Assembly (NCBI GenBank): GCA_964392465.1
Contig: CAYMPC010000002.1
Coordinates: 14,993 to 78,992 of the forward strand
Length of the DNA: 64,000 nucleotides
Direction: 5' to 3'
DNA from: an uncultured Methanosarcinales archaeon
GTDB lineage: Archaea > Nanobdellota > Nanobdellia > Woesearchaeales > GW2011-AR15
Shown: positions 13,103-49,646 of the stretch, piece after piece
Layout of the letters: each line of letters begins with the position of its first letter
Numbering within the stretch: the stretch's first letter is position 1
Position numbers and translations under genes: made by a program
The notes under the pieces: generated by a model
What the model was told of the DNA's origin: nothing
What the model saw: the letters and a program-made list of their open reading frames with translations, nothing else
The model's database searches: none

Positions 13103-13258
13103 ATGAAGCAAAAAGTAGCAGTAGTGAATGTTAGATTGCCTGAGGAGATTATTTCTTGGATAGATTCTCTTGTAGATAATAAAATATATAATTCTAGATC
13201 AGAGGCAGTAAGAGAATTCTCAAGAGACTATGTGTTAAAACAAAGAGGAGGGAGATAG
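13103..13258 (+). CDS. ribbon-helix-helix (CopG/Arc-like) DNA-binding protein
   Basis: Below the ORF-track cutoff. Translation MKQKVAVVNVRLPEEIISWIDSLVDNKIYNSRSEAVREFSRDYVLKQRGGR shows a beta-strand followed by two helices. Confidence 0.55.
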   Translation: MKQKVAVVNVRLPEEIISWIDSLVDNKIYNSRSEAVREFSRDYVLKQRGGR

Positions 13259-13521
13259 TGCCAGATCAAATTGTTTCTGTAAGGATGCCCGTAACTTTGA
13301 TTAATGAGTTAAAAGAGCTGGCAGAAAAAAACCATTTCCTTGATGTCAGCGAGGAAGTCCGTTCTTTACTGAGAGAAAAATGGCAGGAGCATAAAGATCC
13401 TTATGCAATGAAACTTCTGGCTATAAAGGAAAGTGTTGCAAAAACAGCTGTTCCAGAGAAAATAAAGATGCTAAAAGATGATTTGAAAAGATTATTGGAG
13501 GAGTTAAATGGTCTTCAATAA
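13258..13521 (+). CDS. ribbon-helix-helix-like protein with C-terminal coiled coil
   Basis: GTG start overlapping the previous stop. VSVRMPVTLINELKELAEKNHFLDVSEEVRSLLRE; overlaps the next gene by 14 nt. Confidence 0.5.
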   Translation: MPDQIVSVRMPVTLINELKELAEKNHFLDVSEEVRSLLREKWQEHKDPYAMKLLAIKESVAKTAVPEKIKMLKDDLKRLLEELNGLQ

Positions 13522-16500
13522 TCATAAAAGAATAATATCTTGGACTATTTTGATACTTATAATTGTATTTGGATTAGTCTTTTCTAGAATACATATTATT
13601 GTAAATGCAGAGGAAAATCTTACCTCATTAAATCTATCTGAAAACACAACTCAAAATACAACAGATGAAATAAGTCAAAATATAACCGCAAACATTACAA
13701 CAAACACATCAGAAGAAATTTCAATAATAAATTCCTCTTTAATAATATTAGATAGCAGCAATTACAAAGAAATTTATGAAAACGAATCTGTAAATTTTTA
13801 TGCAAATTATACATATGAAAACGGAACAATAGAAGGAAGATGTATAATAGATATTCTCCAAACACAAGAAGAGATGATTTACAATTCAACAAGTAAATTA
13901 TATAATTATACAAAAATTTTCTTACAATCAGGCAATTATTCCTATGAAATAAATTGTTCAAAAGAGGGCTTCACAAATCAAAGTGAAACATCAACAATAC
14001 AGATTTTACCTATTTTAATTAATTCAACAAATAATACTATTATAGATAATGATAATGATGGTTATTCTAATATTACAGATTGCAATGACAATAATCCTAA
14101 TATTAATCCTGGAAAAAAAGAAATACTTTATAATGGGCTAGATGATGATTGCAACCCTTCAACATTAGATTACCTTATTTTCAACGTTAATACAGATAAA
14201 CAAGTATACTCAACAACAGAGACAGTAAGAATAAGTATAGAGGCGCAAAATAATTCAGATACATATATTACTATAAACACACCTACAAACGTATCCTATA
14301 TCTATATCTTCTCAAATGGAAGCTATCCTGTAACTCAGGAATTTTCATTAACAGGATTAGCTGGGACATATGGTGTTGAAGCAATAAATTACTATGAGAA
14401 TTATACTAATCAAAAAAATATACCCTTTACAGTACAAAGTTCAATGAATGTAGAAATTGAGACAAATGTTTCTGAAGTATATGAAAAAGAAAGAATCCAT
14501 TTCAAAGCAGTTGTAACAGGTGCAACAGGAAACGTGAACCTTATTTGGAAAATGGATGATAATAAAGAGATTTATCAAAGTGAATTTGACTATAATTATA
14601 GTAATGCCAGAGAATATAATGTTGTTCTATTAGCCACTGATCAGGGAGGCAACCAAGTAATTAAAACAAAAAAGATACTAGTAAATAAACAATATTTCCT
14701 AAAAGTAAAAGTAGTTGATAACTCTACAAATGAGATTCTACCGAATGCAACAGTAAAATTAGATTCAATATCACAAAAAGTAAATTCAACAGGAGAAGTA
14801 GAATACAAAATAACAAATAATACATATGAACTTAGAGTTTCATCAGATAATTATTATTCTTATCAGGAAGACATAAAAATAAATAACTCTCTAATATTTA
14901 CAGTTAAGTTAGTAAAAAGAGAAGAGGAAGTCTCACCTATTATTAGTATAATCTCTCCTCAAAATAATACAAAATCTTCAAAGCCAGAATTCAAATTCAC
15001 GTTTGAGGATGATGGATATGCAGATTGCAGTCTGTATATATCTAAAGAAGGAGATTGGTGGGAAGAGATTGATGCAAATGAAGAATTATCTCCTAATATA
15101 GAATACTATTTCAACCCAAGTTTAGAGAATATATCTTATTATTGGAAAATCAAATGTATAGATGAAGATGGCAATGTCGAATACAGCCCACAATATTTTG
15201 TTGATATCTCAGCTAACGAACAAAATGTAATTATGCAGGATAACCAGGAAGAAGTAGAAACAACATATAACGTTATTCAAAACGTCTATAATGTAATTCC
15301 TGACTTCGAAACATATTCTCCAGATGAAAAAAAGATAGTTGATTATCTAAAAATGGATGCATTGATTAAAGATGCAAAAAGAAAACTGGAGATGGCTAAC
15401 AGGGATTTATTTAATCTAAAAAATCAGCCAGATACAGATTCAGTCATAAAAACAAGAGATGAAATTTATGCCAGAATTGAAACTATAAAAGATGAAACTC
15501 CTCTATCTGTAAGCTCAAAAAAGAAGGTTGATTTTGTCAAATATATTGAAGATTCGGAAGTTGAATCCCTCTTTAATGAATATCTTACTCTAAATAACAT
15601 TCAATTAAGCAATAGTGAAAAAAAGAAGCTTGTTGAGCAAAATAAAATCCTGCAGAAAAAAGCAACAATAGCCACAACAGCATACAATGTTGAAATAACT
15701 TATATTTCAGGAAGAAAAGAAGAAATTACTTTAATTGTAAGAAAAACAGACATTGATTCTGCTCAGGGAATCATGTATGCTGAATTTATACCAAAAGATA
15801 TTGTTGATACTGTTAATAAAATTGTCTTTGTAACTCAGCCAGATAAAATCTTAAAAGAAGATCCAGTATTTGAAGTTGAATTAACCAAGTTTACAGAAAT
15901 AGTTTATTATATTAAAAATTCTGTTTCATTGGATATTATTCCTAAAATAAAGCCAATATTAATAAAAACACAACTTGAAACTTCTTCAAATAGCATAACA
16001 GGATTTGCGTTATTTGACACACTAGGATTTTCAGAATCTAATAAAAAAATATTCATTATAGAACTATTTGTTGTTTTCATTTTATTAGGGATTTATCTTT
16101 TCTATTACTTTAAATCTTCTAATTATGAAATAATTGCTCCAGTTATTACAAAAATAACTAAAGAAGAAAGCAAACAAGCTATACAAAGTAAAATAACTTT
16201 TTCAAAAATAGGAACAACTGCAGAAGAGAGTCATAAAATACAATATATAAATAACGTAATTCAAAAAGCAGAGAATAACTTAAAACACAACAAGATAGAA
16301 GCAGCAGCAGTCAAATATTATGAATTGAAATTTTTATATGACTTACTTAGTGAGAATGATAAACTCTTTTTGTTTGATAATCTAATGTCTCTATCTGATA
16401 AAATTAATTATGCAAATATCAACAAATTGCTTGATGAGGCAATAATCTTCCTCGCAATAGGAAATTATGACTCTTCAATAGACTTATACGAAGAAATACA

Positions 16501-16603
16501 AAAAGAATATGCGAAACTATCTGATTATTATCAAGAGAAAATATATGCAAGATGTTGCGAATTGGCATTGCATCTTCAGATGAAACAGGAAAAAAATGGC
16601 TAA
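13508..16603 (+). CDS. large type-I membrane surface glycoprotein (1031 aa) with MopE-like metal-binding motif
   Basis: N-terminal signal/TM; dense N-x-S/T sequons; DNDNDGYSNITDCNDNNPNINPGKKEILYNGLDDDCN motif; C-terminal TM (FIIELFVVFILLGIYLFYYF) plus cytoplasmic helical tail. Confidence 0.7.
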   Translation: MVFNNHKRIISWTILILIIVFGLVFSRIHIIVNAEENLTSLNLSENTTQNTTDEISQNITANITTNTSEEISIINSSLIILDSSNYKEIYENESVNFYANYTYENGTIEGRCIIDILQTQEEMIYNSTSKLYNYTKIFLQSGNYSYEINCSKEGFTNQSETSTIQILPILINSTNNTIIDNDNDGYSNITDCNDNNPNINPGKKEILYNGLDDDCNPSTLDYLIFNVNTDKQVYSTTETVRISIEAQNNSDTYITINTPTNVSYIYIFSNGSYPVTQEFSLTGLAGTYGVEAINYYENYTNQKNIPFTVQSSMNVEIETNVSEVYEKERIHFKAVVTGATGNVNLIWKMDDNKEIYQSEFDYNYSNAREYNVVLLATDQGGNQVIKTKKILVNKQYFLKVKVVDNSTNEILPNATVKLDSISQKVNSTGEVEYKITNNTYELRVSSDNYYSYQEDIKINNSLIFTVKLVKREEEVSPIISIISPQNNTKSSKPEFKFTFEDDGYADCSLYISKEGDWWEEIDANEELSPNIEYYFNPSLENISYYWKIKCIDEDGNVEYSPQYFVDISANEQNVIMQDNQEEVETTYNVIQNVYNVIPDFETYSPDEKKIVDYLKMDALIKDAKRKLEMANRDLFNLKNQPDTDSVIKTRDEIYARIETIKDETPLSVSSKKKVDFVKYIEDSEVESLFNEYLTLNNIQLSNSEKKKLVEQNKILQKKATIATTAYNVEITYISGRKEEITLIVRKTDIDSAQGIMYAEFIPKDIVDTVNKIVFVTQPDKILKEDPVFEVELTKFTEIVYYIKNSVSLDIIPKIKPILIKTQLETSSNSITGFALFDTLGFSESNKKIFIIELFVVFILLGIYLFYYFKSSNYEIIAPVITKITKEESKQAIQSKITFSKIGTTAEESHKIQYINNVIQKAENNLKHNKIEAAAVKYYELKFLYDLLSENDKLFLFDNLMSLSDKINYANINKLLDEAIIFLAIGNYDSSIDLYEEIQKEYAKLSDYYQEKIYARCCELALHLQMKQEKNG

Positions 16604-19600
16604 AGAAAAAAGCAATCGCGCTTTAAAAATAAGAAAATTTGGATTTAAATTAGATATAGATACAGTACTATTAAATCTATTTATAGTCTTGCTTTTGATT
16701 ATTTCTATCCTTTCTCTTGTTATTTTAAGGGATTATATAGGTTATGCTGTAGGATCTCATCAGGCAAAAGGAGGAACAATAACAGAATTGAATGTATATC
16801 AAGTATATCCTGCAAGCATATGGAATGCAGTTTATGGGATTGCTCTCCAGGCTCCAATATACAATTCATCATGGTATATATATGCAACACCAGCAGGGAT
16901 GTCAGAAATTAATCCTATTTTCAATTGTTTTGAACCAGGAAGAGAACACGAATTATACCTCACAACTTTAAATTCATCAGAGATAGTATGGGAAAACATC
17001 ACAGCCGGAACAACTCAGTTGCTGGATGATTATGTTTCTATTTCTAATAGTGAGGCAGTTTCTTCTACACAGACATTCACAAGTACAATCTCAGTAGAGA
17101 TAGGAAGCAGGGTAATCTCAAATGTTCCTGCAGCATATATGCGGCAATATGGAGTTTCAGGAAGCAATGAATTCCCAGTTGGAATATTGCAATATAATGA
17201 AACAATAATAATGGTGGCGATTATAAATGATGATTATCTTACGGGTTACAGACCAGACAAGATATTTAATTTTGAAATGTTCGTTCCTGTTCCTGCAAAC
17301 ACAAGTACCTTAAGATATAATATTTATACAGATCCATTTGATGTATGCCCACAAGGAGAAGAGGGAGAAAGAAAAAACCCAGGAAGCGTTTATGGATGGG
17401 TCAAAGAAAATCAGACAAGCGCCCTTTTAGAAAATGCACTTATTGCAGTAGGCACTAAAATTTATATAACTGGCGCAGATGGATTTTATAATATAACAGA
17501 TTTGCAGCCTGGAGATTATTATATTGTTGCAATAAAAACAGGATTCAATAATTATGTTGGAAATATTACTATTCCTGAAAATGCGTCTCTAGAATATAAT
17601 ATCACAATGGAATTATATCAGGAACCATTAACTGGAACAGGTCCAGGTATTGGAACAGGAATTGACGATCCTGGGACAGAGACAAAGACAGGAGAAGGAC
17701 CTGGAATAGGGCCTGGAATAGGACCTGGCATTGGACCATATATAGAAAAACCTCAAGAATTAGGTATAGATCATTGGGTTTCCTTAGATAAATTGCATAA
17801 AAAAATAAGGATTGGAAACTTTTTTACAGAACATCTCTTAATTTTCAGTTTTAGAAAAGATGTTGCAAGAGTTCAATTAAGGATTACAGGAAATGCATCA
17901 CAAGTATTAGAATTAGGAGAGAATTCAGTTACAATAGAGCAAAACAAATATGCAAATGTGACAATAAGAGGATTTGGAATAGAAAAAGGAACATATATAG
18001 GAATGCTTGAGCTTTCAGGAGACTTTAATGATACTTTGCCTATAGAGATTATAGTTTCAGATGAGGATAAGCTACCAATTGAGGCTCTTCTGATACAGTT
18101 GGATGTTCTTACATCAAGACCACTTCCTGGAAATAAATTCAAATTTAGGGTGAACTTACAGAACTTGCTTATAGAAGATAGTTATGAGGTAAGGCTCGAT
18201 TATTATATAAGGGGAGTAGAAGCAGATACAGCTAATTATACTATGTATTTGGGAAATGACACAGTAACATTGAGGACGAGTCAATCTATTATAAAAGAAA
18301 CACTTATACCACCTGAATGGGCAAAGGGAGAATATTATTTGATAGTAGAAGCTAATTATTTTGATACCTATTCAAGAACAGCTACTATCTTTGAAATTTT
18401 CGAGCCTATTCATAAATATAAAGTATTTGGAGCAGTTGAATTATGGAAAATTCTATTGGGACTTTCTATTTTAGCATTTTTAGTAGGTTTGCTAATTTAT
18501 ATAAGGCACAGAATCTCAGCTCAAAAAAGATTCCATGCAAAAATTGAATATAACTTACTTCCTAAAAAAGGCCCAAGGTCTTTATATGTTGGAAAAATTG
18601 CAGAAACAGAAAACGACACATATTTTGACATGGACAAATTGACTGTACACACAATCATTGCAGGATCAACAGGAGGAGGTAAATCTATTTCCGCGCAGGT
18701 CATAATCGAAGAATGCTTATTAAAAGGGGTTGGTGTTGTCGTATTTGATCCTACAGCGCAATGGTCCGGAATGCTTAGAAAATGCGCAGATGAAAAAATG
18801 TTTAACTTTTATCCAAGATTCCATCTGACAAAAAAAGATGCTAAAGCATTTAATGGAAACATCAGAGCAATAAAAAACCCAAGGGAAAGAATTGATTTGA
18901 TGAAATATTGGAAACCAGGAGAAATACAAGTATTTACAACAAGCACATTAGATCCTAAGGAAATGGATATCTTTGTTGCAAACACAGTCAGAGAAATTTT
19001 TCATTCAAATTTACAGGAATTTCGTGGATTAAGGATGATGATGGTCTACGATGAAGTTCACAGACTTCTTCCTAAATTCGGAGGAAGTGGAGAAGGATTT
19101 ATTCAAATAGAAAGAGCATGCAGAGAGTTCAGAAAATGGGGAATAGGTGTCATGCTAGTATCTCAGGTATTGGCAGACTTCGTTGGGCAGATTAAAGCTA
19201 ACATCAACACAGAAATCCAGATGAAGACAAGAGATGAAGGAGATCTGCAGAGAATTGAAACAAAATATGGAAAGAGCTATATTCAGGAATTGGTCAAAGC
19301 GCCAGTAGGATCTGGAATGATTCAAAATTCAGATTGGAACAGAGGTAAGCCATATTATATTACTTTCAGGCCAATTTTGCACAGTGTTGTGAGACTGACA
19401 GATCAAGAACTTGAGCAATATAACAAATATAATGAAATTGTTGACGATTTATCTTATCAATTAGAACAGTTAGAACAAGAAGGCAAGGATATATTTGATT
19501 TGAAATTAGAATTAAAACTATCACTCGATAAAATAAAATCTGGAAGTTTTAATATGGTTGAAATCTATTTAGAAGGATTAAAGCCGAGAATAGAAAAAAT

Positions 19601-23411: not shown

Positions 23412-23576
23412 TTATTCTTTTCCTTTCTCCCTGTATAATAATCTTACTGCATACTTTATTACATCTGTCCTGCTGGTAAAATCACCCTCTGATTCTTTTA
23501 CTAGCTGATCGATTTTTTTTGTTAGTCCTTCTGGTATCTTTATAGTATCATACTTTGTTCCTGTTTTTTTTCTCAT
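23412..23576 (-). CDS. ribbon-helix-helix protein (paralog of the 61952 gene)
   Basis: Below the ORF-track cutoff. Reverse translation MRKKTGTKYDTIKIPEGLTKKIDQLVKESEGDFTSRTDVIKYAVRLLYREKGKE closely matches MARKKTGNKYVTIKLPEGTVKKIDEMIKESKGDYTSRTDVIKTAVRDMYF. Confidence 0.5.
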   Translation of the reverse strand: MRKKTGTKYDTIKIPEGLTKKIDQLVKESEGDFTSRTDVIKYAVRLLYREKGKE

Positions 23577-24804: not shown

Positions 24805-24957
24805 CTTAAAGGAAAACTTTTCTGTTATAATTTATAATGCAGTGATTAATATAATCACTCTCATCTTCAAAAAGACCTTCATGTTCTTCAACAAGCTTCT
24901 TAATTTTTTCGACTGTCTGTTTTGGCAGCCTTACATTTACAAAACTCTCTATCATTT
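24805..24957 (-). CDS. putative ribbon-helix-helix protein
   Basis: Reverse translation MIESFVNVRLPKQTVEKIKKLVEEHEGLFEDESDYINHCIINYNRKVFL. Coordinates approximate (within 3 nt). Confidence 0.4.
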
Positions 24958-40959: not shown

Positions 40960-43900
40960 GCAATAACTTTATTCACAAAAATAGGAAAATATATACAAAA
41001 GTTCTTCTAATTAATTTTATTTTGCTTTTATCTTTTATTATTGTAAAAGGAGAGTTTCTCTACTTGGAAAAAACAGAATTTACAATTGGAGAAACAGTTT
41101 CTATAATTACACAAGGGCCGCTTGAGACAGCATCTCTTGAGATATTGTCTCCTTCTAATATCTATAGATATCTAGGTGTGCCTCAGACAGAATTGAAGTT
41201 TGTTCCAAAGGAAATTGGCAATTATGAAATAAGACTTAGTGATCAAAATGGAATTGTTCTTCAGTCACTTTTTTTTACTGTTTCCGATATAACTTCTGCA
41301 ACTGACTTAAATTTTACCTTAACTGAAAAAGAACAGCCAACTATTTTAATAAAAAACAGCTTTAATCAAGAATTGATTACAGATTATTTGATATATAATC
41401 AATCAGAGGAGATTATTTTTTCATCAGAAACATTGGGAGCATTTGAAACAACAGAAACACTTTCTTCTTTGATATTTTCTCAGCAAAAATATGATCTTGA
41501 ATTGATTATGAATAGAACAAGTGTTAAAAATATGATTTTTTACAATATTACTTTTGATCAAACCTTTGAATTAGGGTTTGAAGAAATGCCTAATGAATCT
41601 GTTTCTAATTATTTTTTGAGCAATGAAAGAATAAGGCGCATTGATAAAGTATATGCAATTGATCCTACTAAGATAAAATTTGATTCTGCTGTAATTACTT
41701 TTATTGCAAGTGGTAATGAGCTCTATAAATGCAAAGACTATAATTTTACCAATAGGACTTGCTACGGAGAGCATGTAAAAATAATGGACATGATTCCCGG
41801 TATGGAATATAATTTTACCTTAACTCCAGAAGACCCTCAATATACAGAGACAACAAGCAATACAGCAGGATGTAGTTGTACAAATACATGCACAACAGGA
41901 ACAGGAGGAGCCTCAAGTTGCACAGCATCATGCAATGATTATTGTGACATCAATTTTACAATACCTTCAGGAGCTATTTCAGGATGGCTTGAGAAAGTTA
42001 GTTATAGTGTTACAGTTACTTTGTCAGGAACAGGAACTTCTGTTAGTGCCCTTCACGAAGGTAGGCTTGATAAAGATGAAATAATTAATAGTGGAAATGA
42101 TGTACAAATAGGAACATCGACAATTTCTACTAAAGCAACCAATAATATTGTTTTTGAAAATATTAATATGCCAGACCCTTATGTCTCAACTTCTTTTGAT
42201 GAGACAAACTGCACTTGGTCAAATGGATATTGTACCTGGAAGCCATTTTTATCTTCTTCTTATACATGTACAGGAAACAGAAGAACTTGCATAACTACAA
42301 TTTCTTTAACTTTGATTAATTACACTTGGAACTATACAGTAGATACTATTAATCCAACAATATCCTTTGGCAATCCTGCCAATAATAGCTTTATCAATAC
42401 AAATTCAAATCTTTTTTTCTACACTCCAAACGATAATCTCGATTTAAAAAATTGTTCTATTTATCTAAATGGAGTTTTAAACCAAACAAACACTACCTTG
42501 ACAAAAGGGGCTGAGACAACATTGTATGTAACAAATATGAACGATGGATATTATTCATGGTATATCTTATGTTATGACACCAATCTTAATTCAAACACAA
42601 GCGGAACAAGATATCTTACAATAGATACAATTGCGCCTTCTGTCTCTTATATATGGCCAACTCCATATAATCAATCTTATTTGCAGGTTAATTATTTAGT
42701 TGTTAATGTAAGTCATATAGAATCAAATCCTGATAAACTAATCTTTAACTGGAATAAAAGCATTACAACTCAACCTTACACAGGTAGCTTTACTAATATA
42801 AGTAAAATAGGTTTATCTGAGGGTTTATACTATTATAATTTAAGTATTAATGATAGCGCCTCTAATACAAATGCAACAGGCACTTATTGGGTTGTTATAG
42901 ATACAATAAATCCGCAAGTCTCTTTAAATGAGCCATTAAATAATAATTGGATAAATTATAACACAAGTATTAGATTTAATTTTACGCCGACAGACACTAA
43001 TATCCAAAATTGCACATTATATGGGAATTTTACAGGGACAGGATTATTTGAAAAAAATGAAACAAATCTCAATCCAGTCTCTGGAATTAAAAACAATTTC
43101 AACACTATAAATATCAAGGACGGAATTTATGTATGGAATGTGTTGTGCTATGATAAATCCGGAAGGAGCGCATGGGCAATTTCAAATTATACATTAAAAG
43201 TTGATGCAAGCATTCCACTAGTAACTTTATTAGAGCCATATAACAATACTTTATGGAATGAATCAAGTACTGTGATGTTCAACTATACTGTAACAGATAG
43301 TTCAAATATAATTAATAATTGTACCTTGGAAGTTAAATCTAATATTACAACTTTGTATTTTGAAGATACAAGTATAGAAACAGTAATAAAACAAAATTTT
43401 ACAGTTGAATTGTCTAACAACAAATTCAATTGGACAATATTATGCACAGATGTAGCTGGAAACACAAACAGTATCTATCCAGGGTATTATAATCTTACTG
43501 TTGCAGTTGGAGAAGACACAGTTGGACCAAATATAGTTTTAGAGAGCCCACAAAATTCTAATTGGACAAATATAAATAACATTACACTTATTTATACACC
43601 TACAGACAATTCTCTTATAAATAATTGCTCTCTCTATGTAAATGATGTCTATAACCAAACAGACATAGAAGTAGAAAATGAAGTTTCTAATTTCTTTGTA
43701 TTGAATAAGACAAAAGAAGGTATATATTCTTGGTATATCAATTGCACTGATAATTCAACAAATAAGAACAACAGAAAATCACAAGACACATGGACTTTTA
43801 TAGTTGATCAAAGCAATCCATCACTATATCTTGTATCCCCTATTAATTTTTTTAATACAACAAATTTGAATATTAATTTTACCTGGCTTTTAATTGACTT

Positions 43901-46900
43901 ATTTTCTCAAAATATGTACTGCGATTTAATTGTTAACAATTCATTAGAGGCATCTTTAAAATTAACACAAAATAACACTTATACAAATCAGACAGCTTAC
44001 TTGACAAACGATGGAGTATATTATTGGAATGTTACATGCAGAGATGAAGCATACAATTATAATGTTTCACAGACAAGAGCTTTTACAATAGATAGTACAA
44101 TCCCTTATATTGATCTTATTCTACCTGAAAACGGAAATACAAGTACAACAGGAGATATTACTTTTTATCATATCCCTAGTGATAATACAAGCGGCTTAAA
44201 TAATTGTATTTTATATCTTAATGGACTTGAAGAAAATTCTTCTTTTGTATTACTTAATAATCAGCAAAACAATTTTACAAAAATAAATTTGGTTTCAGGA
44301 AATTATAATTGGCAGGTTAACTGCACAGATAAACTTGGTAATAAGGGTTATTCAGAAACAAGGACTTTTTCTGTTGATAATATAGCACCAAAAACAAACA
44401 GTTATCAAGCAATACCTACAACAGCAGATCTCTCCCAAAGCGTAAATATCTTTGTAAATGTTACAGATAATTCTGGATTAAACATAGTTATAGCACAGAT
44501 AATGAAACCTAGTGGTGCAACTACTAATTACACAATGACATTATATTCAACAGATATATATAATTTAACTTATATAGATACAACAGAAAGAGGTACTTAT
44601 ACAGTTAATATTTTCTCTAACGATACTTATGGAAATTTGAATATCTCAAAAAATTATTATTTTTATGTAAGCGCAGGAATCTTTGTCAACAAAATATACT
44701 TTGATAGGGGAGAAACAGTATATATAACAGGAGGGGGTTTTGATCCAGGAGATAATATAACACTAAATATAACAGATAAATATGGGATAACTGCACTTAA
44801 TTCTCCAATAAAAGATATTATTGTGAACTCAACAGGCGGATTTGCTACAACATGGAATATAAGTACAGCAAATGGCCAAGCAACAGGAAACTATACAATT
44901 TTAGGTTATGATGTTAATTCTCCAGGACAAGCAGGAACAAATTATGCTTATCTAGTTAGAAGGTTGACAGCAGCAAATCTTGATGATAAAAATACAGCAG
45001 GATTAGTTGTTAATTCTTTAGTAAATGAATCAGATACACAATATTCAACAATAGTTCCTGGAGCAGGAATTGATCTTTTAAATTTCACTTGGGTTAATAT
45101 TGTTCCAGATAATCAAGTTATTTCTGATGTAAGATTTTACATGCAGCATTATGAGACAGCACAATATAATGTATATCTTGAGTGGTATAATTCTTCAAAT
45201 GGAGTATGGACAAGGGTCTGTACTATTCTGACGACGGCAACCGAAAAAATTGATACATGCGATTTAAATGATGAAGTTAAGACTTCTTCTGAAGCAAACT
45301 ATCTTCAATTAAGATTAACTGATAATAATGGTCTTGGAGCATCAACAGGAAACTGGGTTAATTTGAATTTTGCTTATTTAGAAGTAACCTTTACAACCCT
45401 TACTCTTGATAAAGAGAGTTATGTTCAGGGAGAAAAAGTTAATATTTCAGGAAGCAGGTGGCCGGTAAACACAGAACTTACATTAAATATTAGTAAAACA
45501 GATAGCACAACAGATCAACAAACAACAACAACAGATGCAAACGGAAATTTTAATTCAATCTATAATATCAGTTATGGTGCTCCTCTTGGCAGATTCAACA
45601 TAACTGTTTTTGTAACAACAAACCCAGATGATACAGAGGAGACCTATTTCTATGTAGTAAAAAGAAATTCTTCAATTGCAACAGATAAGTTATATTACGG
45701 CAGAGCTGAAACAGTAAATATTACAGGAAGGGGATTTTCTCCTGATGCCAACATTACTATTTTGATTTATGACGCGCAAAATTTTTTGAGATTGAATACA
45801 AGCGTTATTTCTGATAATATACCTAATGGAACCATGGAATACTTATGGTCAATTCCTTATGCTTATAGCGGCTATTATGGAAAACACACTATAATAGTAA
45901 ACGATAAATTATACCCTAACTTAAACGGAACTGCAAATATTACGGTTGGTATACTAACAACAAATTCTACAAAATTAGAAAACTCGATTTTATCTGATGA
46001 AACCTCAAAAGTAAATCAATCAGACAATATAACTGCCAGTCTTGCTGTATATAATGGTGTTGAAGATTATATGAGTTTTAATTTTTTGGACGCAAGCACT
46101 TCAAATTATGTACTCTCGAATTTCACATTCTATATTCAACATAATGAAGTACAAAACTATGATCTTGTTTTAGAATGGTGGAATGATACATCTTGGGTGG
46201 ATGTATGTAGGATAACCTACTCTATAGATAAAAAGATTGATTCTTGCGATTTATTGCCTCTTATTGAAAGAACCCCAAGAACAGCAAATCTCACTTTAAA
46301 GATTACAGACAACCAGAGTAATTTAGGTGTTTCAGGGAATATATGGACATATATAGATTATGTTTATTTAGTGTCCTGGGCAGATCCAGATTTTATAAAC
46401 CCTAAAGTAAATATATACTCTCCTTCAATTGATTCGATATATAATTATAGCCAAAGTGTTCCAATAGTAGTAAATATTTCTGAAAATGTAGAAATAGATA
46501 CAGTTTATGCCTTATTAGAGTGGTCTTCTGGCTCTGAAATTATTCTTTTGACTCCTTTAAATATCAATTACTTCGGAGAGGGAATATATGAAGGATTTTT
46601 TACTAATACAAAACAGCTGGACTATTTTAATGTGACAATATTTGCTAATGATACAACAGGGAATTATAATGACACAGAAAAAACAAATTTCTCAATACAA
46701 TCCCCAGATTTGACATCAAATTCAAGTTACATTTTCTTCTCCAATGAGAACCCTGTTGAAAATGAAAACATTACATTAAATATTACACTCTTTAATAGAG
46801 GTAATTATGTAGCAGGGCAATTTACAGTTAGGTTTTTTGAGGGAGATTATACTTTTGAAAAACAAATAGGAGAAGATATAATAATTTCAAGCCTGAATTC

Positions 46901-47600
46901 TGGTGAAAATATAACTATAGAAACAACATGGCTTTCAAAAGTTGGCACACATATTATACAAATAGTTATTGATCCACCTTTGGAAACAAATGGTAGTGTT
47001 TGGGAGATAAATGAATCAAATAATGTAGTAGAAGGATACATAAATATACCTAGCTGGAATATTTTTTACGGTAACACTTCTGGTTATGTCAAGTTAGAAA
47101 AAGATACAAGTGAAAAGAAATTTTCATGGAATATAACAACAGGAGGCAATATGTATGTTGTAGAGACAGGTACTGAGGTAGATTGGAGTAATCTTCAGGC
47201 ATTGGGGAGAGATATTTTTAATCAGGTTTCTTATAATGATTTCTTTGAGGCCGATGTTGCGCTTCAAATGGAAAATAATACAGATTCTTTAAACAGGACA
47301 TATGTGATTAATAACTTGCCTTTATATATTAATGATATCATAATATATACTAATCAAATAAATAATGTCCCTTTCATCAATTCCACAAATACATCCAACT
47401 TTATGACCGGAATCTTATGGGATAAATCAGAGGGTAACACAGAATATAATGGGACACAAGACTTGATATTTATTACGCAAGTTAATAAGGAGCAGCAAGG
47501 TAAATATGGAATACAAGATTATGAAATCAGAGTGCCTTATACCTTAGACACTTATAAAATGGGCAGCGGCACAGTGACTTTTTACACAGAGATTATTTAA
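40956..47600 (+). CDS. giant surface glycoprotein (2214 aa), paralog of the 25794 protein
   Basis: Homologous N-terminus (IYRY.. / YAIDP.K..F....KCK..NFT...CYGE) and C-terminus (MTGILWDKS.GN..YNG.QDL). W-N-C modules, and one CARDB-like segment (SPDLTSNSSYIFFSNENPVENENITLNITLFNRGNYVAGQFTVRFFEG). Confidence 0.85.
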   Translation: MSNNFIHKNRKIYTKVLLINFILLLSFIIVKGEFLYLEKTEFTIGETVSIITQGPLETASLEILSPSNIYRYLGVPQTELKFVPKEIGNYEIRLSDQNGIVLQSLFFTVSDITSATDLNFTLTEKEQPTILIKNSFNQELITDYLIYNQSEEIIFSSETLGAFETTETLSSLIFSQQKYDLELIMNRTSVKNMIFYNITFDQTFELGFEEMPNESVSNYFLSNERIRRIDKVYAIDPTKIKFDSAVITFIASGNELYKCKDYNFTNRTCYGEHVKIMDMIPGMEYNFTLTPEDPQYTETTSNTAGCSCTNTCTTGTGGASSCTASCNDYCDINFTIPSGAISGWLEKVSYSVTVTLSGTGTSVSALHEGRLDKDEIINSGNDVQIGTSTISTKATNNIVFENINMPDPYVSTSFDETNCTWSNGYCTWKPFLSSSYTCTGNRRTCITTISLTLINYTWNYTVDTINPTISFGNPANNSFINTNSNLFFYTPNDNLDLKNCSIYLNGVLNQTNTTLTKGAETTLYVTNMNDGYYSWYILCYDTNLNSNTSGTRYLTIDTIAPSVSYIWPTPYNQSYLQVNYLVVNVSHIESNPDKLIFNWNKSITTQPYTGSFTNISKIGLSEGLYYYNLSINDSASNTNATGTYWVVIDTINPQVSLNEPLNNNWINYNTSIRFNFTPTDTNIQNCTLYGNFTGTGLFEKNETNLNPVSGIKNNFNTINIKDGIYVWNVLCYDKSGRSAWAISNYTLKVDASIPLVTLLEPYNNTLWNESSTVMFNYTVTDSSNIINNCTLEVKSNITTLYFEDTSIETVIKQNFTVELSNNKFNWTILCTDVAGNTNSIYPGYYNLTVAVGEDTVGPNIVLESPQNSNWTNINNITLIYTPTDNSLINNCSLYVNDVYNQTDIEVENEVSNFFVLNKTKEGIYSWYINCTDNSTNKNNRKSQDTWTFIVDQSNPSLYLVSPINFFNTTNLNINFTWLLIDLFSQNMYCDLIVNNSLEASLKLTQNNTYTNQTAYLTNDGVYYWNVTCRDEAYNYNVSQTRAFTIDSTIPYIDLILPENGNTSTTGDITFYHIPSDNTSGLNNCILYLNGLEENSSFVLLNNQQNNFTKINLVSGNYNWQVNCTDKLGNKGYSETRTFSVDNIAPKTNSYQAIPTTADLSQSVNIFVNVTDNSGLNIVIAQIMKPSGATTNYTMTLYSTDIYNLTYIDTTERGTYTVNIFSNDTYGNLNISKNYYFYVSAGIFVNKIYFDRGETVYITGGGFDPGDNITLNITDKYGITALNSPIKDIIVNSTGGFATTWNISTANGQATGNYTILGYDVNSPGQAGTNYAYLVRRLTAANLDDKNTAGLVVNSLVNESDTQYSTIVPGAGIDLLNFTWVNIVPDNQVISDVRFYMQHYETAQYNVYLEWYNSSNGVWTRVCTILTTATEKIDTCDLNDEVKTSSEANYLQLRLTDNNGLGASTGNWVNLNFAYLEVTFTTLTLDKESYVQGEKVNISGSRWPVNTELTLNISKTDSTTDQQTTTTDANGNFNSIYNISYGAPLGRFNITVFVTTNPDDTEETYFYVVKRNSSIATDKLYYGRAETVNITGRGFSPDANITILIYDAQNFLRLNTSVISDNIPNGTMEYLWSIPYAYSGYYGKHTIIVNDKLYPNLNGTANITVGILTTNSTKLENSILSDETSKVNQSDNITASLAVYNGVEDYMSFNFLDASTSNYVLSNFTFYIQHNEVQNYDLVLEWWNDTSWVDVCRITYSIDKKIDSCDLLPLIERTPRTANLTLKITDNQSNLGVSGNIWTYIDYVYLVSWADPDFINPKVNIYSPSIDSIYNYSQSVPIVVNISENVEIDTVYALLEWSSGSEIILLTPLNINYFGEGIYEGFFTNTKQLDYFNVTIFANDTTGNYNDTEKTNFSIQSPDLTSNSSYIFFSNENPVENENITLNITLFNRGNYVAGQFTVRFFEGDYTFEKQIGEDIIISSLNSGENITIETTWLSKVGTHIIQIVIDPPLETNGSVWEINESNNVVEGYINIPSWNIFYGNTSGYVKLEKDTSEKKFSWNITTGGNMYVVETGTEVDWSNLQALGRDIFNQVSYNDFFEADVALQMENNTDSLNRTYVINNLPLYINDIIIYTNQINNVPFINSTNTSNFMTGILWDKSEGNTEYNGTQDLIFITQVNKEQQGKYGIQDYEIRVPYTLDTYKMGSGTVTFYTEII

Positions 47601-47628: not shown

Positions 47629-48477
47629 TTATTTTTCTTTATTATTCTTTATTATTCTTTCTTCCCTGATTTTTAATATTAGTAAAATTATTAACAATAA
47701 TAAAAATAAAATACTCACCCACTCAAAAAAGTCTTTTACACCTATAATTTCCTTTATTTTTCTATATTCTTTTACAAATATTATTTTTTCTTTTTTTTGA
47801 TACTCTATAAATGTTTTATTTTCAGTGATATTTATATATTCTATCTTATTATAACAATTAATCACACTTGGCTCAACTATTGTGGCAATTGCCCAGTAAG
47901 TTCTGTCTCTGTTCGGCTTTTGGGTCATATTAGTAATTAAGATTGTTTCTCCAGGTCCAAGCAAAAATTCATAGTTGGTACTGTAAAAATCAGCATCTAA
48001 AACACTTATTTTTTTACTTTCAAGAGCTTCTTTTAATTCTTTTCCTCCATATATCTCATAGGGAAACTTAAGATTATCAATATATGAAAAATTTATTTTA
48101 TATGTGCCCCATTGCTCCTCAATATTAGTTAATTGGAGATTAGGAACAACATTATTTCCCAAGGAAGCAACATTTCCTCCTAATGTGCTGAATTTGTATC
48201 CTCTTGTATCACAAATCTTTTTTTCTACAGGTGTTTTTGTTGTTACTTCCCTTATCAGACTAAAAGGAATCTCTACAAACTCACTTTTCTTAATATTGCA
48301 AGGAATTTCAATAATATCTATCAAAGGATATGTTAAAAGCAGCAAAATGAATACGATGAACAAACCCCTTAACTTATTTCTCTTTTTTTTTAATTTCGTT
48401 TTGCATTTTTCACAAGAAACCTTTTCTATTTCATTCTCAAAATTACAGTTAGGGCAAATTATCTTTTTTTCAACCAC
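47629..48477 (-). CDS. membrane protein with N-terminal cytoplasmic zinc ribbon
   Basis: CPNCNFEN...CEKCKT zinc ribbon, a TM helix, then an extracellular domain of about 220 aa. Confidence 0.55.
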   Translation of the reverse strand: MVEKKIICPNCNFENEIEKVSCEKCKTKLKKKRNKLRGLFIVFILLLLTYPLIDIIEIPCNIKKSEFVEIPFSLIREVTTKTPVEKKICDTRGYKFSTLGGNVASLGNNVVPNLQLTNIEEQWGTYKINFSYIDNLKFPYEIYGGKELKEALESKKISVLDADFYSTNYEFLLGPGETILITNMTQKPNRDRTYWAIATIVEPSVINCYNKIEYINITENKTFIEYQKKEKIIFVKEYRKIKEIIGVKDFFEWVSILFLLLLIILLILKIREERIIKNNKEK

Positions 48478-48614
48478 TAAAAAAAAGTAGCAGTCTTACT
48501 ATAAAAAATTTCTTTTTTCTTGTTCTTTACTTTTAATTTTATAATATTTTTTAGTATAATTAATTCATTAGAAAAATATATATACTTAGAAGATTATTTT
48601 TCTTCATTAAGTAA

Positions 48615-49646
48615 GTGGGGAGAATGGCATTATTGAAAAATCTATATCTGGACTTGAGTTTTCTAAATCCTTTTAAAAAAAAGAAGATTGAAGAAGAAAT
48701 TAAAACTAATAAGGAAGACATAATTAATGAAGAAATAATTATGAGATCTCCTCCTCCTGCAGAAACATTACTATCAAATAATCCTTCTTTTAACAGAAAA
48801 ACAAAGGAACTTCCTCCGGTTTCCAGAAGATTGCTGGATAATGCAAAAATAAGTCATAAAACAGAAAATTATGAAAGGCAAGAATTACCAAAAATAGAAA
48901 AGCTGATAATGCCTCCCCCTATAATTAACAATAACAATCCCCCTTTAGCAAATCTCCCTAAAAGTTTTTCTAATGAAAAAAGAGAAGCGCTCATTAAGAC
49001 GCATGATACTATTAAAGAAAAAGAAGATTTTGAAGAATCAAACTTAGAAGAAAAAGAAAACACTTTTTTCAACACATTGTATTCTCATTTATCAAAAGAA
49101 GAGCAATATATGCATAAATCACTCTCGAACAAGGTATTTAATAAAAATCTATTAGATGAAATGCAGACATTTTGGCAGCTAAAAAAAGATGAATTGAATA
49201 AAATAAAATTTAATCAGAATATAAAAGCAGATTTAATGAAAAAGATGAATGATCTTCAGCAGCAGGAGATAGAATGGCAAAAATTGCAGCTGCAGCATGA
49301 TAGGATTAAAGATGAGTTGGCTTCTAAGGAAATAATAATTGAAAATAATATTAAACAGATGAGAAGATCTTTTAAAAAACTACATCTCTCGTCTGATATA
49401 AGACCAGAACATTATTTTGTTTTGTCAAATGGAGAAAAATTGAGAAACTTAACTGAGCTGATAGAATCATTAAAAACAATGTCTCCAGAAATATATTTTT
49501 ATCACGTGAATGAGCAAAAAAACGATTTTGCAAATTGGATTCATGATGTTATGGGATTATCAGATTTGGCTCAAAACGTCAAATTATCAAAAAATAAGGA
49601 ACAAATGAGCTATTTAATAGAAAATTGGTGTAATTCTGTTTTATAA
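48615..49646 (+). CDS. hypothetical protein with C-terminal 'KNDFAxW' domain and proline-rich disordered N-terminus
   Basis: YFVLSNGEKLRNLTELIESLKTMSPEIYFYHVNEQKNDFANWIHDVMGL aligns with the 20635 and 16596 proteins. Confidence 0.6.
   Translation: MGRMALLKNLYLDLSFLNPFKKKKIEEEIKTNKEDIINEEIIMRSPPPAETLLSNNPSFNRKTKELPPVSRRLLDNAKISHKTENYERQELPKIEKLIMPPPIINNNNPPLANLPKSFSNEKREALIKTHDTIKEKEDFEESNLEEKENTFFNTLYSHLSKEEQYMHKSLSNKVFNKNLLDEMQTFWQLKKDELNKIKFNQNIKADLMKKMNDLQQQEIEWQKLQLQHDRIKDELASKEIIIENNIKQMRRSFKKLHLSSDIRPEHYFVLSNGEKLRNLTELIESLKTMSPEIYFYHVNEQKNDFANWIHDVMGLSDLAQNVKLSKNKEQMSYLIENWCNSVL

What the first reader, a model, noticed from the sequence alone, without database searches (positions are those of the whole stretch)
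13103..49646. Candidate uncharacterised surface-adhesion and assembly system spanning 13.1-49.7 kb, all on the plus strand
One co-directional, tightly packed gene block runs through most of the window. Many stop and start codons overlap (13258/13508, 16596/16603, 20633/20635, 25794/25797, 38738/38740, 40956/40959). In order it encodes two RHH regulators, a 1031-aa membrane glycoprotein, a membrane HerA/FtsK-type ATPase with an extracellular domain, a KNDFAxW-domain protein, a coiled-coil protein, a polytopic membrane coiled-coil protein, a KaiC-like ATPase, a wHTH protein, a 4314-aa surface protein, a DCGGPC-repeat membrane protein and a 2214-aa surface protein. A second KNDFAxW-domain protein closes the block. 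Known archaellum, pilus, Ced/Ted and secretion loci do not have this composition. Giant adhesins tightly coupled to two ATPases point to a dedicated export, assembly or remodelling machine, possibly for attaching an episymbiont to its host. This is inference.
Basis: partly seen in the sequence, partly recalled or inferred. Interest (0 to 1): 0.8.

Follow-up and report, generated by a model that had tools for sequence, protein, structure and literature searches.

The report
DPANN membrane ATPase and giant-adhesin module
This stretch of an uncultivated DPANN archaeon carries a conserved, apparently undescribed gene module built around a membrane-embedded HerA-type ATPase; related genomes repeatedly place giant sugar-coated surface proteins next to it, which makes it a testable candidate for how these tiny archaea build or operate their cell surface.

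Summary
The block is not all on the plus strand and is not one operon. Comparison with about 85 related Woesearchaeota/Pacearchaeota-type loci splits it.

- **Invariant core:** g1-g6, 13.1-22.8 kb. It comprises two small RHH proteins, a 1031-aa Ig/PKD membrane glycoprotein, a 1345-aa two-TM protein with an ectodomain and a cytoplasmic HerA/DUF87 ATPase plus DUF5752, a soluble DUF5752 protein and a coiled-coil protein.
- **Recurrent same-strand cargo:** a wHTH gene plus giant Ig-repeat glycoproteins in 15 of 28 loci, always on the same strand, and/or small secreted beta-sandwich proteins in 6 of 28.
- **Shared domain:** the small proteins (50.2-54.2 kb here) are homologous to the giants' C-terminal domain.
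- **Not conserved partners:** the KaiC-like ATPase (near relatives only), the DCGGPC proteins and the zinc-ribbon protein.

None of the known secretion, pilus, Ced, HerA-NurA or defence systems I tested fits. My best reading is inferred: an ATPase-coupled membrane platform that anchors, assembles or operates a surface structure made of Sec-exported giants. I found no description in the searchable literature.

The parts
13103..13258 (+). g1, a 51-aa ribbon-helix-helix protein and first gene of the conserved core
   Evidence: RHH_1 E 0.0017. NikR N-terminal RHH about 1e-6. Present in 14 of 19 loci with enough upstream DNA.
13258..13521 (+). g2, an 87-aa probable second RHH protein of the core
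   Evidence: Only a weak CdrS-type RHH hit, E 1e-3. Conserved next to g1 in 14 of 19 loci.
13508..16603 (+). g3, a 1031-aa single-pass membrane glycoprotein. It has a signal/anchor, a ~815-aa Ig/PKD/MopE ectodomain, a TM at 848-866 and a ~165-aa cytoplasmic tail.
   Evidence: Pfam MopE 33.4 bits; PKD and CarboxypepD_reg sub-threshold. 32 sequons and 2 hydrophobic segments. Three Ig repeats of the same type as in the giants. Present in 16 of 19 loci.
16596..20633 (+). g4, a 1345-aa membrane HerA/DUF87 ATPase. Layout: TM 25-43, ~570-aa ectodomain, TM 618-636, P-loop ATPase (~660-930), conserved helical region, DUF5752 (~1050-1130), K/E-rich linker, TPR.
   Evidence: DUF87 44.6 bits and TPR. PDB HerA hits to 5e-8. 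Invariant Walker A and arginine-rich motifs and ectodomain cysteines across 21 homologues. Full-length homologues at 41-75% identity. Present in 19 of 19 loci.
20635..21684 (+). g5, a 349-aa soluble protein with an N-terminal DUF5752 domain, a disordered linker and a C-terminal helical bundle
   Evidence: Pfam DUF5752 19.4 bits. AF2 model has two domains with pLDDT above 90. 36 orthologues found. DUF5752 proteins flank g6 in most loci.
21707..22801 (+). g6, a 364-aa coiled-coil protein with hydrophobic-basic N- and C-terminal motifs. It is the signature partner of the ATPase.
   Evidence: Heptad signal 41% against 1% shuffled. 62-77% identical where HerA is 57-78% identical. 449 representative clusters at E<=1e-10. 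N-terminal motif in 56 of 72 homologues against 29 of 281 controls.
22856..23410 (+). g7, a 184-aa membrane protein with a C-terminal coiled coil. It is an accessory found in close relatives only.
   Evidence: TM and heptad scans. Found only in L001/L027, L025, L028 and L105.
23412..23576 (-). g7b, a 54-aa RHH protein on the minus strand, very highly conserved
   Evidence: RHH_1 E 0.0057. 96% identical in L105 and 81% in L001.
23743..24792 (+). g8, a 349-aa KaiC/RecA-like ATPase with an acidic N-terminal tail. It is a lineage-specific neighbour, not a core component.
   Evidence: PF06745 77.3 bits. Below every NCBIfam cut-off, including ArlH. A neighbour in 1 of 28 loci, plus a divergent 27%-identical copy in L105.
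25207..25797 (+). g9, a 196-aa probable wHTH protein whose stop overlaps the start of the giant gene
   Evidence: Weak DnaD_N hit. 35-55% identical homologues lie between g6 and a giant gene in at least 8 distinct loci.
25794..38738 (+). g10, a 4314-aa giant surface glycoprotein. It has an N-terminal signal/anchor, a conserved ~650-aa N-terminal region, 25 Ig-like repeats, CARDB and a C-terminal d1-type beta-sandwich domain.
   Evidence: Big_13, CARDB and MG2. 241 sequons and a single N-terminal hydrophobic segment. 25 repeats. C-terminal domain against the d1 family: probability 94.9, E 4e-8. Family found downstream of g6 in 15 of 28 loci.
38740..40959 (+). g11, a 739-aa membrane protein with DCGGPC cysteine-rich repeats. 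It is not a conserved partner.
   Evidence: No Pfam hit. A paralogue lies at 59311-61206. No homologue in any related locus except the paralogue's orthologue in L106.
40956..47600 (+). g12, a 2214-aa giant surface glycoprotein and paralogue of g10, with the same N- and C-terminal regions and 9 Ig repeats
   Evidence: 46% identity to g10 over the last 334 aa. hhalign against the d1 family: probability 86.8. 9 repeats.
47629..48477 (-). g13, a 282-aa zinc-ribbon membrane protein on the minus strand, not conserved with the module
   Evidence: Weak zinc-ribbon hits. No homologue in related loci.
48615..49646 (+). g14, a 343-aa soluble protein with a C-terminal DUF5752 domain
   Evidence: DUF5752 25.4 bits, above the cut-off. 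Homologous to the g5 and g4 copies.
50177..54200 (+). d1 (50177-50980), d2 (51063-51803), d3 (51766-52785), d4 (52963-53475) and d5 (53472-54200). d1, d2 and d5 are paralogous secreted ~250-aa beta-sandwich proteins homologous to the giants' C-terminal domain. d3 is a membrane-anchored glycoprotein and d4 an HTH protein.
54273..61206 (+). Extended surface island: d6 (S26-like signal peptidase), d7 (CDF transporter), d8, d9, d10 (599-aa membrane protein with a cytoplasmic zinc ribbon), d11, d12 and d13 (a second DCGGPC protein)
   Evidence: The same order is kept in relative L106. d8, d9 and d10 recur next to HerA or g6 modules in distant loci. d6, d7, d11, d12 and d13 are seen only in the close relative.

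Best explanation
**What is shown.** The window carries a conserved envelope module of Woesearchaeota/Pacearchaeota-type DPANN archaea that I could not find described.

- g1-g6 form a tightly coupled, co-directional core that is kept in order across hundreds of lineages.
- g4 is a HerA/DUF87 P-loop ATPase with intact catalytic motifs. It is held in the membrane by two TM helices, with about 570 aa outside the cell.
- g3 is a single-pass Ig/PKD glycoprotein.
- g6 is a cytoplasmic coiled coil with conserved hydrophobic-basic termini.
- The DUF5752 (KNDFxxW) domain is always cytoplasmic. It occurs in the ATPase, in soluble and tail-anchored small proteins beside g6, and on the cytoplasmic tails of single-pass Ig surface proteins in relatives.
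- Same-strand cassettes follow the core in other genomes. They hold a wHTH gene plus giant Ig-repeat glycoproteins, and/or small secreted beta-sandwich proteins.
- The small proteins and the giants' C-terminal domain are homologous.

**What I infer.**
- The ATPase, presumably a hexamer like its relatives, forms a membrane platform with g3 and a g6 membrane skeleton.
- DUF5752 domains dock adaptors and surface-protein tails onto this platform from the inside.
- The ectodomains of g3 and g4 hold, assemble or mechanically operate a surface structure (a fibre, coat or adhesion patch) on the outside.
- That structure would be made of the Sec-exported giants co-assembling with the d1-family subunits through their shared domain.
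- The RHH and wHTH proteins would regulate expression.
- The KaiC-like ATPase, the DCGGPC proteins and g13 are local additions rather than parts of the machine.
For: - **Core synteny:** g4 in 19 of 19, g3 in 16 of 19 and g1/g2 in 14 of 19 distinct loci.
- **Giants:** found downstream in 15 of 28 loci and on the same strand in 15 of 15.
- **d1 family:** found downstream in 6 of 28 loci. A giant or a d1-family gene is present in 19 of 28.
- **Second ATPase subtype:** a g6-less HerA subtype in L007-L009 also sits beside proteins carrying the giants' C-terminal region, which includes the d1-type domain, and beside d10 homologues.
- **Shared domain:** d1 family against the g10 C-terminus, hhalign probability 94.9, E 4e-8. 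Against g12, probability 86.8. BLASTP E 7e-5.
- **Shared Ig repeat type** in g3, g10 and g12.
- **ATPase motifs and ectodomain cysteines** are invariant in 21 homologues.
- **Topology and sequon density** fit extracellular glycoproteins.
- **DUF5752 architectures**.
- **g6:** heptad periodicity and terminal motifs, and a family of 449 clusters at 50% identity.
- **Chromosomal, not mobile:** G+C is uniform, the tRNA U5-methyltransferase-like gene (PF05958; 'u2_trmA' in my scripts) sits upstream as in relative L105, and there are no viral-contig relatives.
Against: - No experiment, expression data or complex prediction links the proteins physically.
- The giants and the d1 family have ordinary Sec signals, so they do not obviously need an ATPase.
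- 9 of 28 loci have neither a giant nor a d1-family gene within the downstream DNA held (4-10 kb). L001 and L003 are examples.
- I could not estimate the background density of giant genes in these genomes, so the enrichment rests on adjacency and strand.
- Every characterised FtsK-HerA member moves nucleic acid or polypeptide through its ring. A purely structural or anchoring role would be unusual for this family.
- Structure searches for the d1 family and for g5 gave no informative match.
Confidence: 0.45

Rival explanations
1. Contact-dependent macromolecule translocon. In this reading the membrane-anchored HerA ring pumps DNA or unfolded protein across the membrane. This would resemble T4SS coupling proteins, FtsK/TraB, CedB or T7SS EssC. 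The giants and the g3/g4 ectodomains would provide adhesion to a partner or host cell.
For: - g4 has the topology of a coupling protein or FtsK-like pump: two TM helices followed by a cytoplasmic P-loop motor.
- All weak family hits are to DNA or protein translocases: CedD, TraD, FtsK_SpoIIIE, and TrwB in a homologue.
- RHH proteins head the operon, as in relaxosome or partition systems.
- TPR and DUF5752 domains could recruit substrates.
- DPANN archaea are thought to depend on hosts for nucleotides (general knowledge).
Against: - Every hit to those families lies far below its cut-off and is confined to the Walker A region.
- No relaxase, polytopic channel protein, WXG100-like substrate or nuclease is conserved in the module.
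- The module is chromosomal and inherited vertically.
- The ectodomain is large, glycosylated and well conserved, which a cytoplasmic-face pump does not need.
Confidence: 0.25
2. Housekeeping envelope or division function. g3 would be an S-layer anchor like SlaB. g4/g6 would be an FtsK-like membrane motor with a scaffold for S-layer insertion, division or chromosome segregation. The giants would be neighbours only because surface genes cluster.
For: - g3 resembles DPANN S-layer anchor candidates: about 1000 aa, Ig folds, many sequons and a C-terminal TM (paper 10.1101/2023.10.27.564410).
- The module is near-universal in this clade and chromosomal.
- g1 and g2 weakly resemble the division regulator CdrS.
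- FtsZ lies about 7 kb upstream.
- g6 gives weak SMC/Rad50 coiled-coil matches.
Against: - The CdrS and SMC hits are generic RHH and coiled-coil similarity, far below cut-offs.
- 15 of 15 same-strand giants, the conserved g9-giant pair and the shared domains argue for a specific link.
- Two independent HerA subtypes both keep d1-domain neighbours.
Confidence: 0.2
3. There is no system. The block would be a chance juxtaposition of unrelated surface-protein genes, regulators and two ATPases in a gene-dense small genome, or a mobile or defence island.
For: - Several parts (g8, g11, g13) are indeed not conserved neighbours.
- The best PDB and PADLOC hits of the ATPase are defence-type HerA proteins.
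Against: - The core order is kept in 73 distinct loci down to 37% g6 identity.
- No PADLOC partner proteins are present, only generic HerA/mad8 similarity.
- There is no integrase and no composition shift.
- None of the viral contigs holds a g6 relative.
Confidence: 0.05

Closest known systems
Type VIIb secretion (EssC with EsaA/EssB) and ESX EccC
   Same: It has a membrane-anchored FtsK-HerA-superfamily ATPase with two TM helices, next to a ~1000-aa partner with a large ectodomain. Both are encoded with variable downstream 'cargo' genes.
   Different: g4 has one ATPase domain of the HerA/DUF87 type, not three FtsK/SpoIIIE domains. It scores 16.7 bits on FtsK_SpoIIIE against a cut-off of 24. 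It has no FHA domain, and no WXG100/LXG substrates are present. The cargo here carries Sec signals, and g4 itself bears a 570-aa ectodomain.
T4SS coupling proteins and VirB4 (TraD/TrwB/VirD4), and the archaeal Ced DNA-import ATPase
   Same: The topology matches, with N-terminal TM helices followed by a P-loop motor that is hexameric in the characterised relatives. It belongs to the same superfamily. VirB4 offers a precedent for such a motor assembling a surface fibre.
   Different: Family models are hit only at the Walker A region and far below cut-off. TraD scores 22 bits against 366, and CedD 31.7 against 600. There is no CedA-like polytopic channel, relaxase or pilin. The module is chromosomal and inherited vertically.
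HerA-NurA DNA-end resection helicase and defence-type HerA (Sir2-HerA and related)
   Same: These are the closest sequence relatives of the ATPase core (DUF87; PDB hits 9c1m, 8xau and 4d2i).
   Different: Those proteins are soluble, have an N-terminal HAS barrel and pair with a nuclease or effector. g4 has only about 50 residues between TM2 and Walker A. It has no NurA, Mre11, Rad50 or effector neighbour, and it is an integral membrane glycoprotein.
Archaeal S-layer pairs (SlaA/SlaB) and DPANN Ig-fold surface proteins
   Same: The proteins are heavily N-glycosylated with multiple Ig-like domains. g3 has the SlaB-like layout of an ectodomain, a helical stalk and a C-terminal TM.
   Different: I detected no sequence similarity to known S-layer proteins. 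No ATPase is known to be needed for S-layer assembly. The giants lack a C-terminal anchor.
TasA/TapA/SipW-type fibres and archaeal bundling pili
   Same: Several paralogous small secreted beta-sandwich proteins are encoded near an S26-type signal peptidase.

Membership tests
FtsK-HerA superfamily, HerA/DUF87 clade (g4) | DUF87/HerA central P-loop domain above the Pfam threshold, with Walker A and B | tested here: met
   PF01935 scores 44.6 bits against 23.2. The Walker A motif AGSTGGGKS and the acidic Walker B are invariant in 21 homologues. PDB HerA hits reach 5e-8.
FtsK-HerA superfamily, HerA/DUF87 clade (g4) | N-terminal HAS-barrel domain and a NurA nuclease partner, as in canonical HerA | tested here: not met
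   Only about 50 residues lie between TM2 (618-636) and Walker A (~690), which is too short for a barrel. No NurA, Mre11 or Rad50 is present in the window or in related loci.
Type VII secretion ATPase (EssC/EccC) | FtsK/SpoIIIE-type domains (usually three) and WXG100-type substrates | tested here: not met
   FtsK_SpoIIIE scores 16.7 bits against 24. There is a single ATPase domain and no WXG100 hit in the block.
T4SS coupling protein (VirD4/TraD/TrwB) | Family HMM above cut-off | tested here: not met
   SXT_TraD scores 22.4 bits against 366 and covers Walker A only.
T4SS coupling protein (VirD4/TraD/TrwB) | Two N-terminal TM helices followed by a cytoplasmic motor | tested here: met
   TM helices lie at 25-43 and 618-636, followed by the ATPase. 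This is a shared topology only.
Ced/Ted DNA import | Ced ATPase model above cut-off, plus a CedA-type polytopic membrane protein | tested here: not met
   The CedD model scores 31.7 bits against 600. No polytopic partner is conserved. g7 has about 3 TM helices and occurs only in close relatives.
Archaellum / type IV pilus | ArlI/PilB-type (T2SE) ATPase, an ArlJ/PilC platform protein, and class III signal peptides | tested here: not met
   No such Pfam or NCBIfam hit occurs in g1-g14. g8 scores 37.8 bits on ArlH against 215. The N-termini of the giants and the d1 family look like Sec signals.
KaiC/RecA-like ATPases (g8) | KaiC domain above the Pfam threshold | tested here: met
   PF06745 scores 77.3 bits against 26.6. 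It is below every NCBIfam equivalog cut-off, so the subfamily is unassigned.
DUF5752 (the KNDFxxW domain) | Pfam PF19027 above threshold | tested here: met
   g14 scores 25.4 bits against 23. g5 scores 19.4, which is below threshold, but it is homologous to g14 (E 4e-12) and to g4 residues 1051-1122.
Known anti-phage defence systems (PADLOC) | Signature partner proteins of a HerA-containing defence system | tested here: not met
   Only g4 hits generic HerA/mad8 models. No hit for g3 or g5-g9; g2 gives only one marginal hit (PDC-M46A, E 1.6e-4).
TasA/camelysin-like fibres (d1/d2/d5) | TasA-like fold or the Peptidase_M73 family | tested here: not met
Conserved 'HerA-g6' module defined here | Order g1-g2-g3-g4-(DUF5752)-g6 on one strand | tested here: met
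   The window matches the order seen in L001, L005, L006, L041, L049, L062, L078, L081, L086, L105 and others.

The most novel reading that the evidence does not exclude
The module could be a DPANN-specific, ATP-driven cell-contact organelle with no described counterpart. A membrane-embedded HerA motor with its own ectodomain would sit on a g6 coiled-coil membrane skeleton. A DUF5752 docking network would wire it to surface proteins, a protease and transporters. The motor would extend, tension or move giant Ig-repeat adhesins at the host interface, or gate a channel there.
Probability: 0.25. Interest if true: 0.9.

Novelty: new variant of a known kind. Interest (0 to 1): 0.66.

Why it matters
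Woesearchaeota/Pacearchaeota-type DPANN archaea are abundant and, to my knowledge, have no cultivated representative. How they build their surface and engage partner cells is an open question.

This analysis turns a vague 'island of big surface genes' into a defined, recurrent module.
- It has a clear invariant core, an energy source and a variable cargo.
- Three domain families now have a genomic context: the g6 coiled coil, the d1 beta-sandwich domain shared by the giants and the small secreted proteins, and DUF5752 as a cytoplasmic module on membrane proteins.
- This gives concrete targets for metaproteomics, cryo-ET of enrichments, complex prediction and biochemistry of the ATPase.

If the motor really couples ATP hydrolysis to an external adhesive structure, it would be a new use of the FtsK-HerA motor family.

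Tried and rejected
- **Known systems:** archaellum/type IV pilus, Ced/Ted, T7SS, T4SS coupling protein, HerA-NurA and PADLOC defence systems were each tested by HMM and rejected as memberships.
- **g6 as PspA/Vipp1/ESCRT-III-like:** suggested by its 'MGLF' N-terminus. PDB sequence search gave only apolipophorin-III at E 0.013.
- **Sequence searches of the giants' N- and C-terminal regions against PDB:** only an MG2-like Ig domain was found.
- **Mobile or viral origin:** none of the viral contigs encodes a g6 relative, and the composition is uniform.
- **Literature:** five full-text searches (DUF5752; DPANN+HerA; DPANN+DUF87; dark matter+HerA; DPANN+FtsK/secretion) found no description of the module. 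A sixth, on Woesearchaeota/Pacearchaeota giant surface proteins, returned nothing whose title or abstract concerned it.
- **Technical dead ends:**
  - The first metagenome scan with a too-divergent g6 alignment failed.
  - The afdb50 fold library was unavailable.
  - The source record of the window could not be named.
  - I spent no structure job on g4 or g6, so the g4 ectodomain fold and the g6 tertiary structure are untested.

Full report
**What is in the window**

The window is AT-rich throughout (25-34% G+C) with no compositional break at the block. Archaeal housekeeping genes lie upstream: ribosomal protein S15, diphthine synthase, FtsZ, an XPD helicase and a tRNA U5-methyltransferase-like gene.

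The closest homologues of the block's proteins come from Woesearchaeota, Pacearchaeota and Nanoarchaeota MAGs. The source is therefore a DPANN archaeon of that group. Exact copies of two of its proteins exist in an NCBI contig of 82,147 bp, which I could not name.

**Checking the observation**

Domain calls were largely right:
- g4 carries a HerA/DUF87 P-loop domain (44.6 bits) and C-terminal TPRs.
- g8 is KaiC-like (77.3 bits).
- The 'KNDFAxW' domain is Pfam DUF5752. It occurs three times, in g5, in g14 and inside g4 at about residues 1050-1130.
- The giants contain Big_13-type Ig repeats and CARDB.
- The RHH assignment for g1 is sub-threshold but consistent. Those for g2 (RHH) and g9 (wHTH) are weak.

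- g4 has TM helices at 25-43 and 618-636, with basic residues on the cytoplasmic sides. About 570 aa therefore lie outside the cell and the ATPase lies inside.
- g3 is single-pass, with a ~815-aa ectodomain.
- The giants have one N-terminal hydrophobic segment only.
- Sequon density is 48-56 per 1000 aa in the giants, against 5-10 in cytosolic proteins.
- g6 and the C-terminus of g7 show strong heptad periodicity.

Two statements fail.
- The block is not all on the plus strand. g7b (23412-23576), g8b (24806-24955) and g13 (47629-48477) are on the minus strand. g7b and g8b are conserved in a relative at 96% and 66% identity.
- It is not one tightly packed unit. Gaps of 332, 414 and about 1000 nt hold TATA-like boxes ahead of g8, g9 and g14. 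I infer several transcription units.

**Does the gene order recur?**

I collected loci in three ways:
- contigs encoding g4 homologues;
- a genome-collection scan with a g4 alignment;
- a metagenome scan with a g6 alignment, which returned 80 loci.

I then mapped all window proteins onto these loci by tblastn. After removing duplicates there are 73 distinct g6 loci, spanning 37-83% g6 identity.

| Question | Result |
|---|---|
| g4 upstream of g6, loci with at least 9.2 kb upstream | 19 of 19 |
| g3 upstream | 16 of 19 |
| g1 and g2 upstream | 14 of 19 |
| Giant of the g10/g12 family downstream, loci with at least 4 kb downstream | 15 of 28 |
| Those giants on the module's strand | 15 of 15, starting 0.4-8.8 kb after g6 |
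| d1/d2/d5-family protein downstream | 6 of 28 |
| Giant or d1-family gene downstream | 19 of 28 |
| KaiC-like gene as neighbour | 1 of 28 |
| g7 | 2 of 28 |
| DCGGPC proteins | 0 of 28 |
| g13 | no homologue in any related locus |

A g9 homologue lies between g6 and the giant in at least 8 loci.

In the closest relative found (GCA_038874655.1, HerA 78% identical), the first stretch reads: tRNA U5-methyltransferase-like gene, g1-g7, g7b, g8b, a divergent KaiC-like gene, then a 1480-aa surface protein. The d4-d13 stretch is kept in the window's order about 40 kb away, inverted, next to other giants.

So the core is g1-g6. The wHTH-giant cassette and the d1-family cassette are recurrent cargo. 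g7, g7b, g8 and g8b are lineage-specific. g11 and g13 are not partners.

**Links between the parts beyond adjacency**

*The d1 domain.* d1, d2 and d5 are paralogues of a family with at least 185 members and no Pfam model. A profile of this family aligns with the last ~185 residues of both giants, through to the C-terminal strand:
- g10: probability 94.9, E 4e-8;
- g12: probability 86.8, E 4e-6;
- plain BLASTP also detects the match (E 7e-5).

*Ig repeats.* The ~97-aa Ig repeat of the giants occurs 25 times in g10 and 9 times in g12. It also occurs 3 times in g3.

*DUF5752.* An HMM scan of all ORFs in the loci, with hydropathy and Pfam checks, shows that the domain always lies on the cytoplasmic side. 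It is found:
- fused to the HerA motor;
- in 77 soluble proteins;
- in small tail-anchored proteins directly after g6;
- at the end of the cytoplasmic tails of single-pass Ig surface proteins (the L105 1480-aa and L106 1061-aa proteins);
- fused to an M50-type intramembrane protease and to an ABC-2 permease.

*A second ATPase subtype.* A g6-less HerA subtype (L007-L009) sits beside d10 homologues and beside proteins carrying the giants' C-terminal region, which includes the d1-type domain. Two ATPase subtypes therefore keep similar company.

**The core proteins**

*g4.* It is conserved over its whole length at 41-75% identity. The following are invariant across 21 homologues:
- the Walker A motif;
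- the acidic Walker B;
- an E-R-x-x-R-E-F-R-K-W-G motif;
- ectodomain residues, including two cysteines.

Its nearest solved relatives by sequence are HerA proteins, E 5e-8 to 1e-5. Unlike those, it lacks room for a HAS barrel, has no nuclease partner and is an integral membrane protein.

*g6.* It is as conserved as the ATPase. It defines a family of 449 clusters at 50% identity with E<=1e-10.
- A hydrophobic-aromatic plus poly-lysine N-terminus occurs in 56 of 72 homologues, against 29 of 281 control ORFs.
- A similar C-terminal motif occurs in 28 of 72, against 27 of 281.
- I read these as membrane- or partner-binding motifs. That is inference.

*g5.* It folds into two confident domains joined by a disordered linker. 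Neither domain gave an informative structural match.

**How it most likely works**

The parts list, the topology, the conservation and the shared domains are shown. The rest is inferred.

The ATPase is presumably hexameric, like its relatives. I propose that it forms a platform in the membrane with g3 and a g6 skeleton.
- Inside the cell, DUF5752 domains dock adaptors (g5, g14) and, in relatives, the tails of surface proteins.
- Outside, the g3 and g4 ectodomains hold, assemble or operate a structure made of giants and d1-family subunits.
- Those subunits would associate through their common beta-sandwich domain.

Because the giants and the d1 proteins have Sec-type signals, the ATPase is unlikely to be their exporter.

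The main rival rests on the family's known biochemistry, namely rings that pump DNA or polypeptide, and on the coupling-protein-like topology. In that reading the module is a contact-dependent translocon and the giants are its adhesins. I rate the platform model at 0.45 and the translocon at 0.25. A housekeeping S-layer or division role gets 0.2, and chance, mobile or defence origin gets 0.05.

**Comparison with known systems**

No family test for the archaellum/type IV pilus, Ced/Ted, T7SS, T4SS coupling proteins, HerA-NurA, PADLOC defence systems or TasA-like fibres is met.

The module resembles T7SSb in layout: a two-TM FtsK-HerA-superfamily ATPase, a ~1000-aa ectodomain partner and variable downstream cargo. 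VirB4 offers a precedent for such a motor building a fibre. The module is a member of neither family.

Full-text searches found no description of it. A further search on Woesearchaeota/Pacearchaeota giant surface proteins returned nothing whose title or abstract concerned it. The one relevant paper on DPANN surfaces reports Ig-fold, heavily glycosylated surface and S-layer candidates in Nanobdella and mentions no ATPase module (10.1101/2023.10.27.564410).

**Verdict**

This is a real, recurrent and apparently undescribed module.

I file it as a new variant of a known kind, that is, an envelope machine built on an FtsK-HerA-type motor. There is a 0.25 chance that it is something categorically new. 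Interest: 0.66.

Noticed in passing
window 23412-23576 (-): The 54-aa RHH protein g7b is 96% identical in relative L105 and 81% identical in L001. Its neighbours there are only 38-78% identical. A second copy (66% identical) lies in L106. Conservation this strong suggests a key small regulator or an antitoxin-like protein.
   Followed up: partly
window 38740-40959 (+) and 59311-61206 (+): Two membrane proteins carry repeated cysteine-rich modules of about 35 aa, of the form C..NQGE.GVDCGGPC.PC. There are six repeats in g11 and three in d13. They match no Pfam family. d13 is 61% identical in L106, but neither protein is linked to the ATPase module elsewhere.
   Followed up: partly
L101 10962-12347, L095 1717-3099, L055 12311-14365 (-): DUF5752 is fused to the cytoplasmic end of an M50-type intramembrane metalloprotease and of an ABC-2 permease. 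The protease gene lies directly after g6. This suggests the domain recruits diverse membrane proteins to one site.
   Followed up: partly
L007, L008, L009 (HerA-anchored loci): A second HerA subtype lacks g6. It sits with a homologue of window protein d10 (56450-58249) and with short proteins that carry CARDB and the giants' C-terminal region (which includes the d1-type domain). The window has d10 but no second HerA.
   Followed up: partly
L101/L102/L095, L012, L011: In some genomes the module, or the HerA gene alone, is duplicated in tandem. In L101/L102 a second g1-g2-g3-g4 set starts about 2.8 kb after g6. L012 and L011 each have two HerA genes in a row.
   Followed up: no
window 54273-54776 (+): A 167-aa S26/S24-like signal peptidase lies just after the d1-d5 secreted proteins, and the same arrangement is kept in L106. 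The hits are sub-threshold, E about 1e-3. It could be a dedicated processing peptidase or simply the cell's housekeeping signal peptidase.
   Followed up: partly
window 13103-13521 (+) and 5368-6432 (-): g1 and g2 weakly hit the haloarchaeal cell-division regulator CdrS model (22 and 19 bits against a cut-off of 100). An FtsZ gene lies about 7 kb upstream. This is probably generic RHH similarity.
   Followed up: partly
window 61606-61860 (-) and 62140-62394 (-): Two paralogous 84-aa proteins, 44% identical, look like small wHTH proteins. They lie just past the surface island, next to a 99-aa ORF (61207-61506, -) with a nuclease-like EIDIL...E.K motif.
   Followed up: no
window 3784-3859 (-): A tRNA-Gln(TTG) gene is the only RNA gene detected in the window by ARAGORN and by Rfam.
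   Followed up: yes
window 47629-48477 (-) and 56450-58249 (+): Two membrane proteins with large external parts carry short cytoplasmic zinc ribbons, N-terminal in g13 and C-terminal in d10. This is a recurring design in this island.
   Followed up: no
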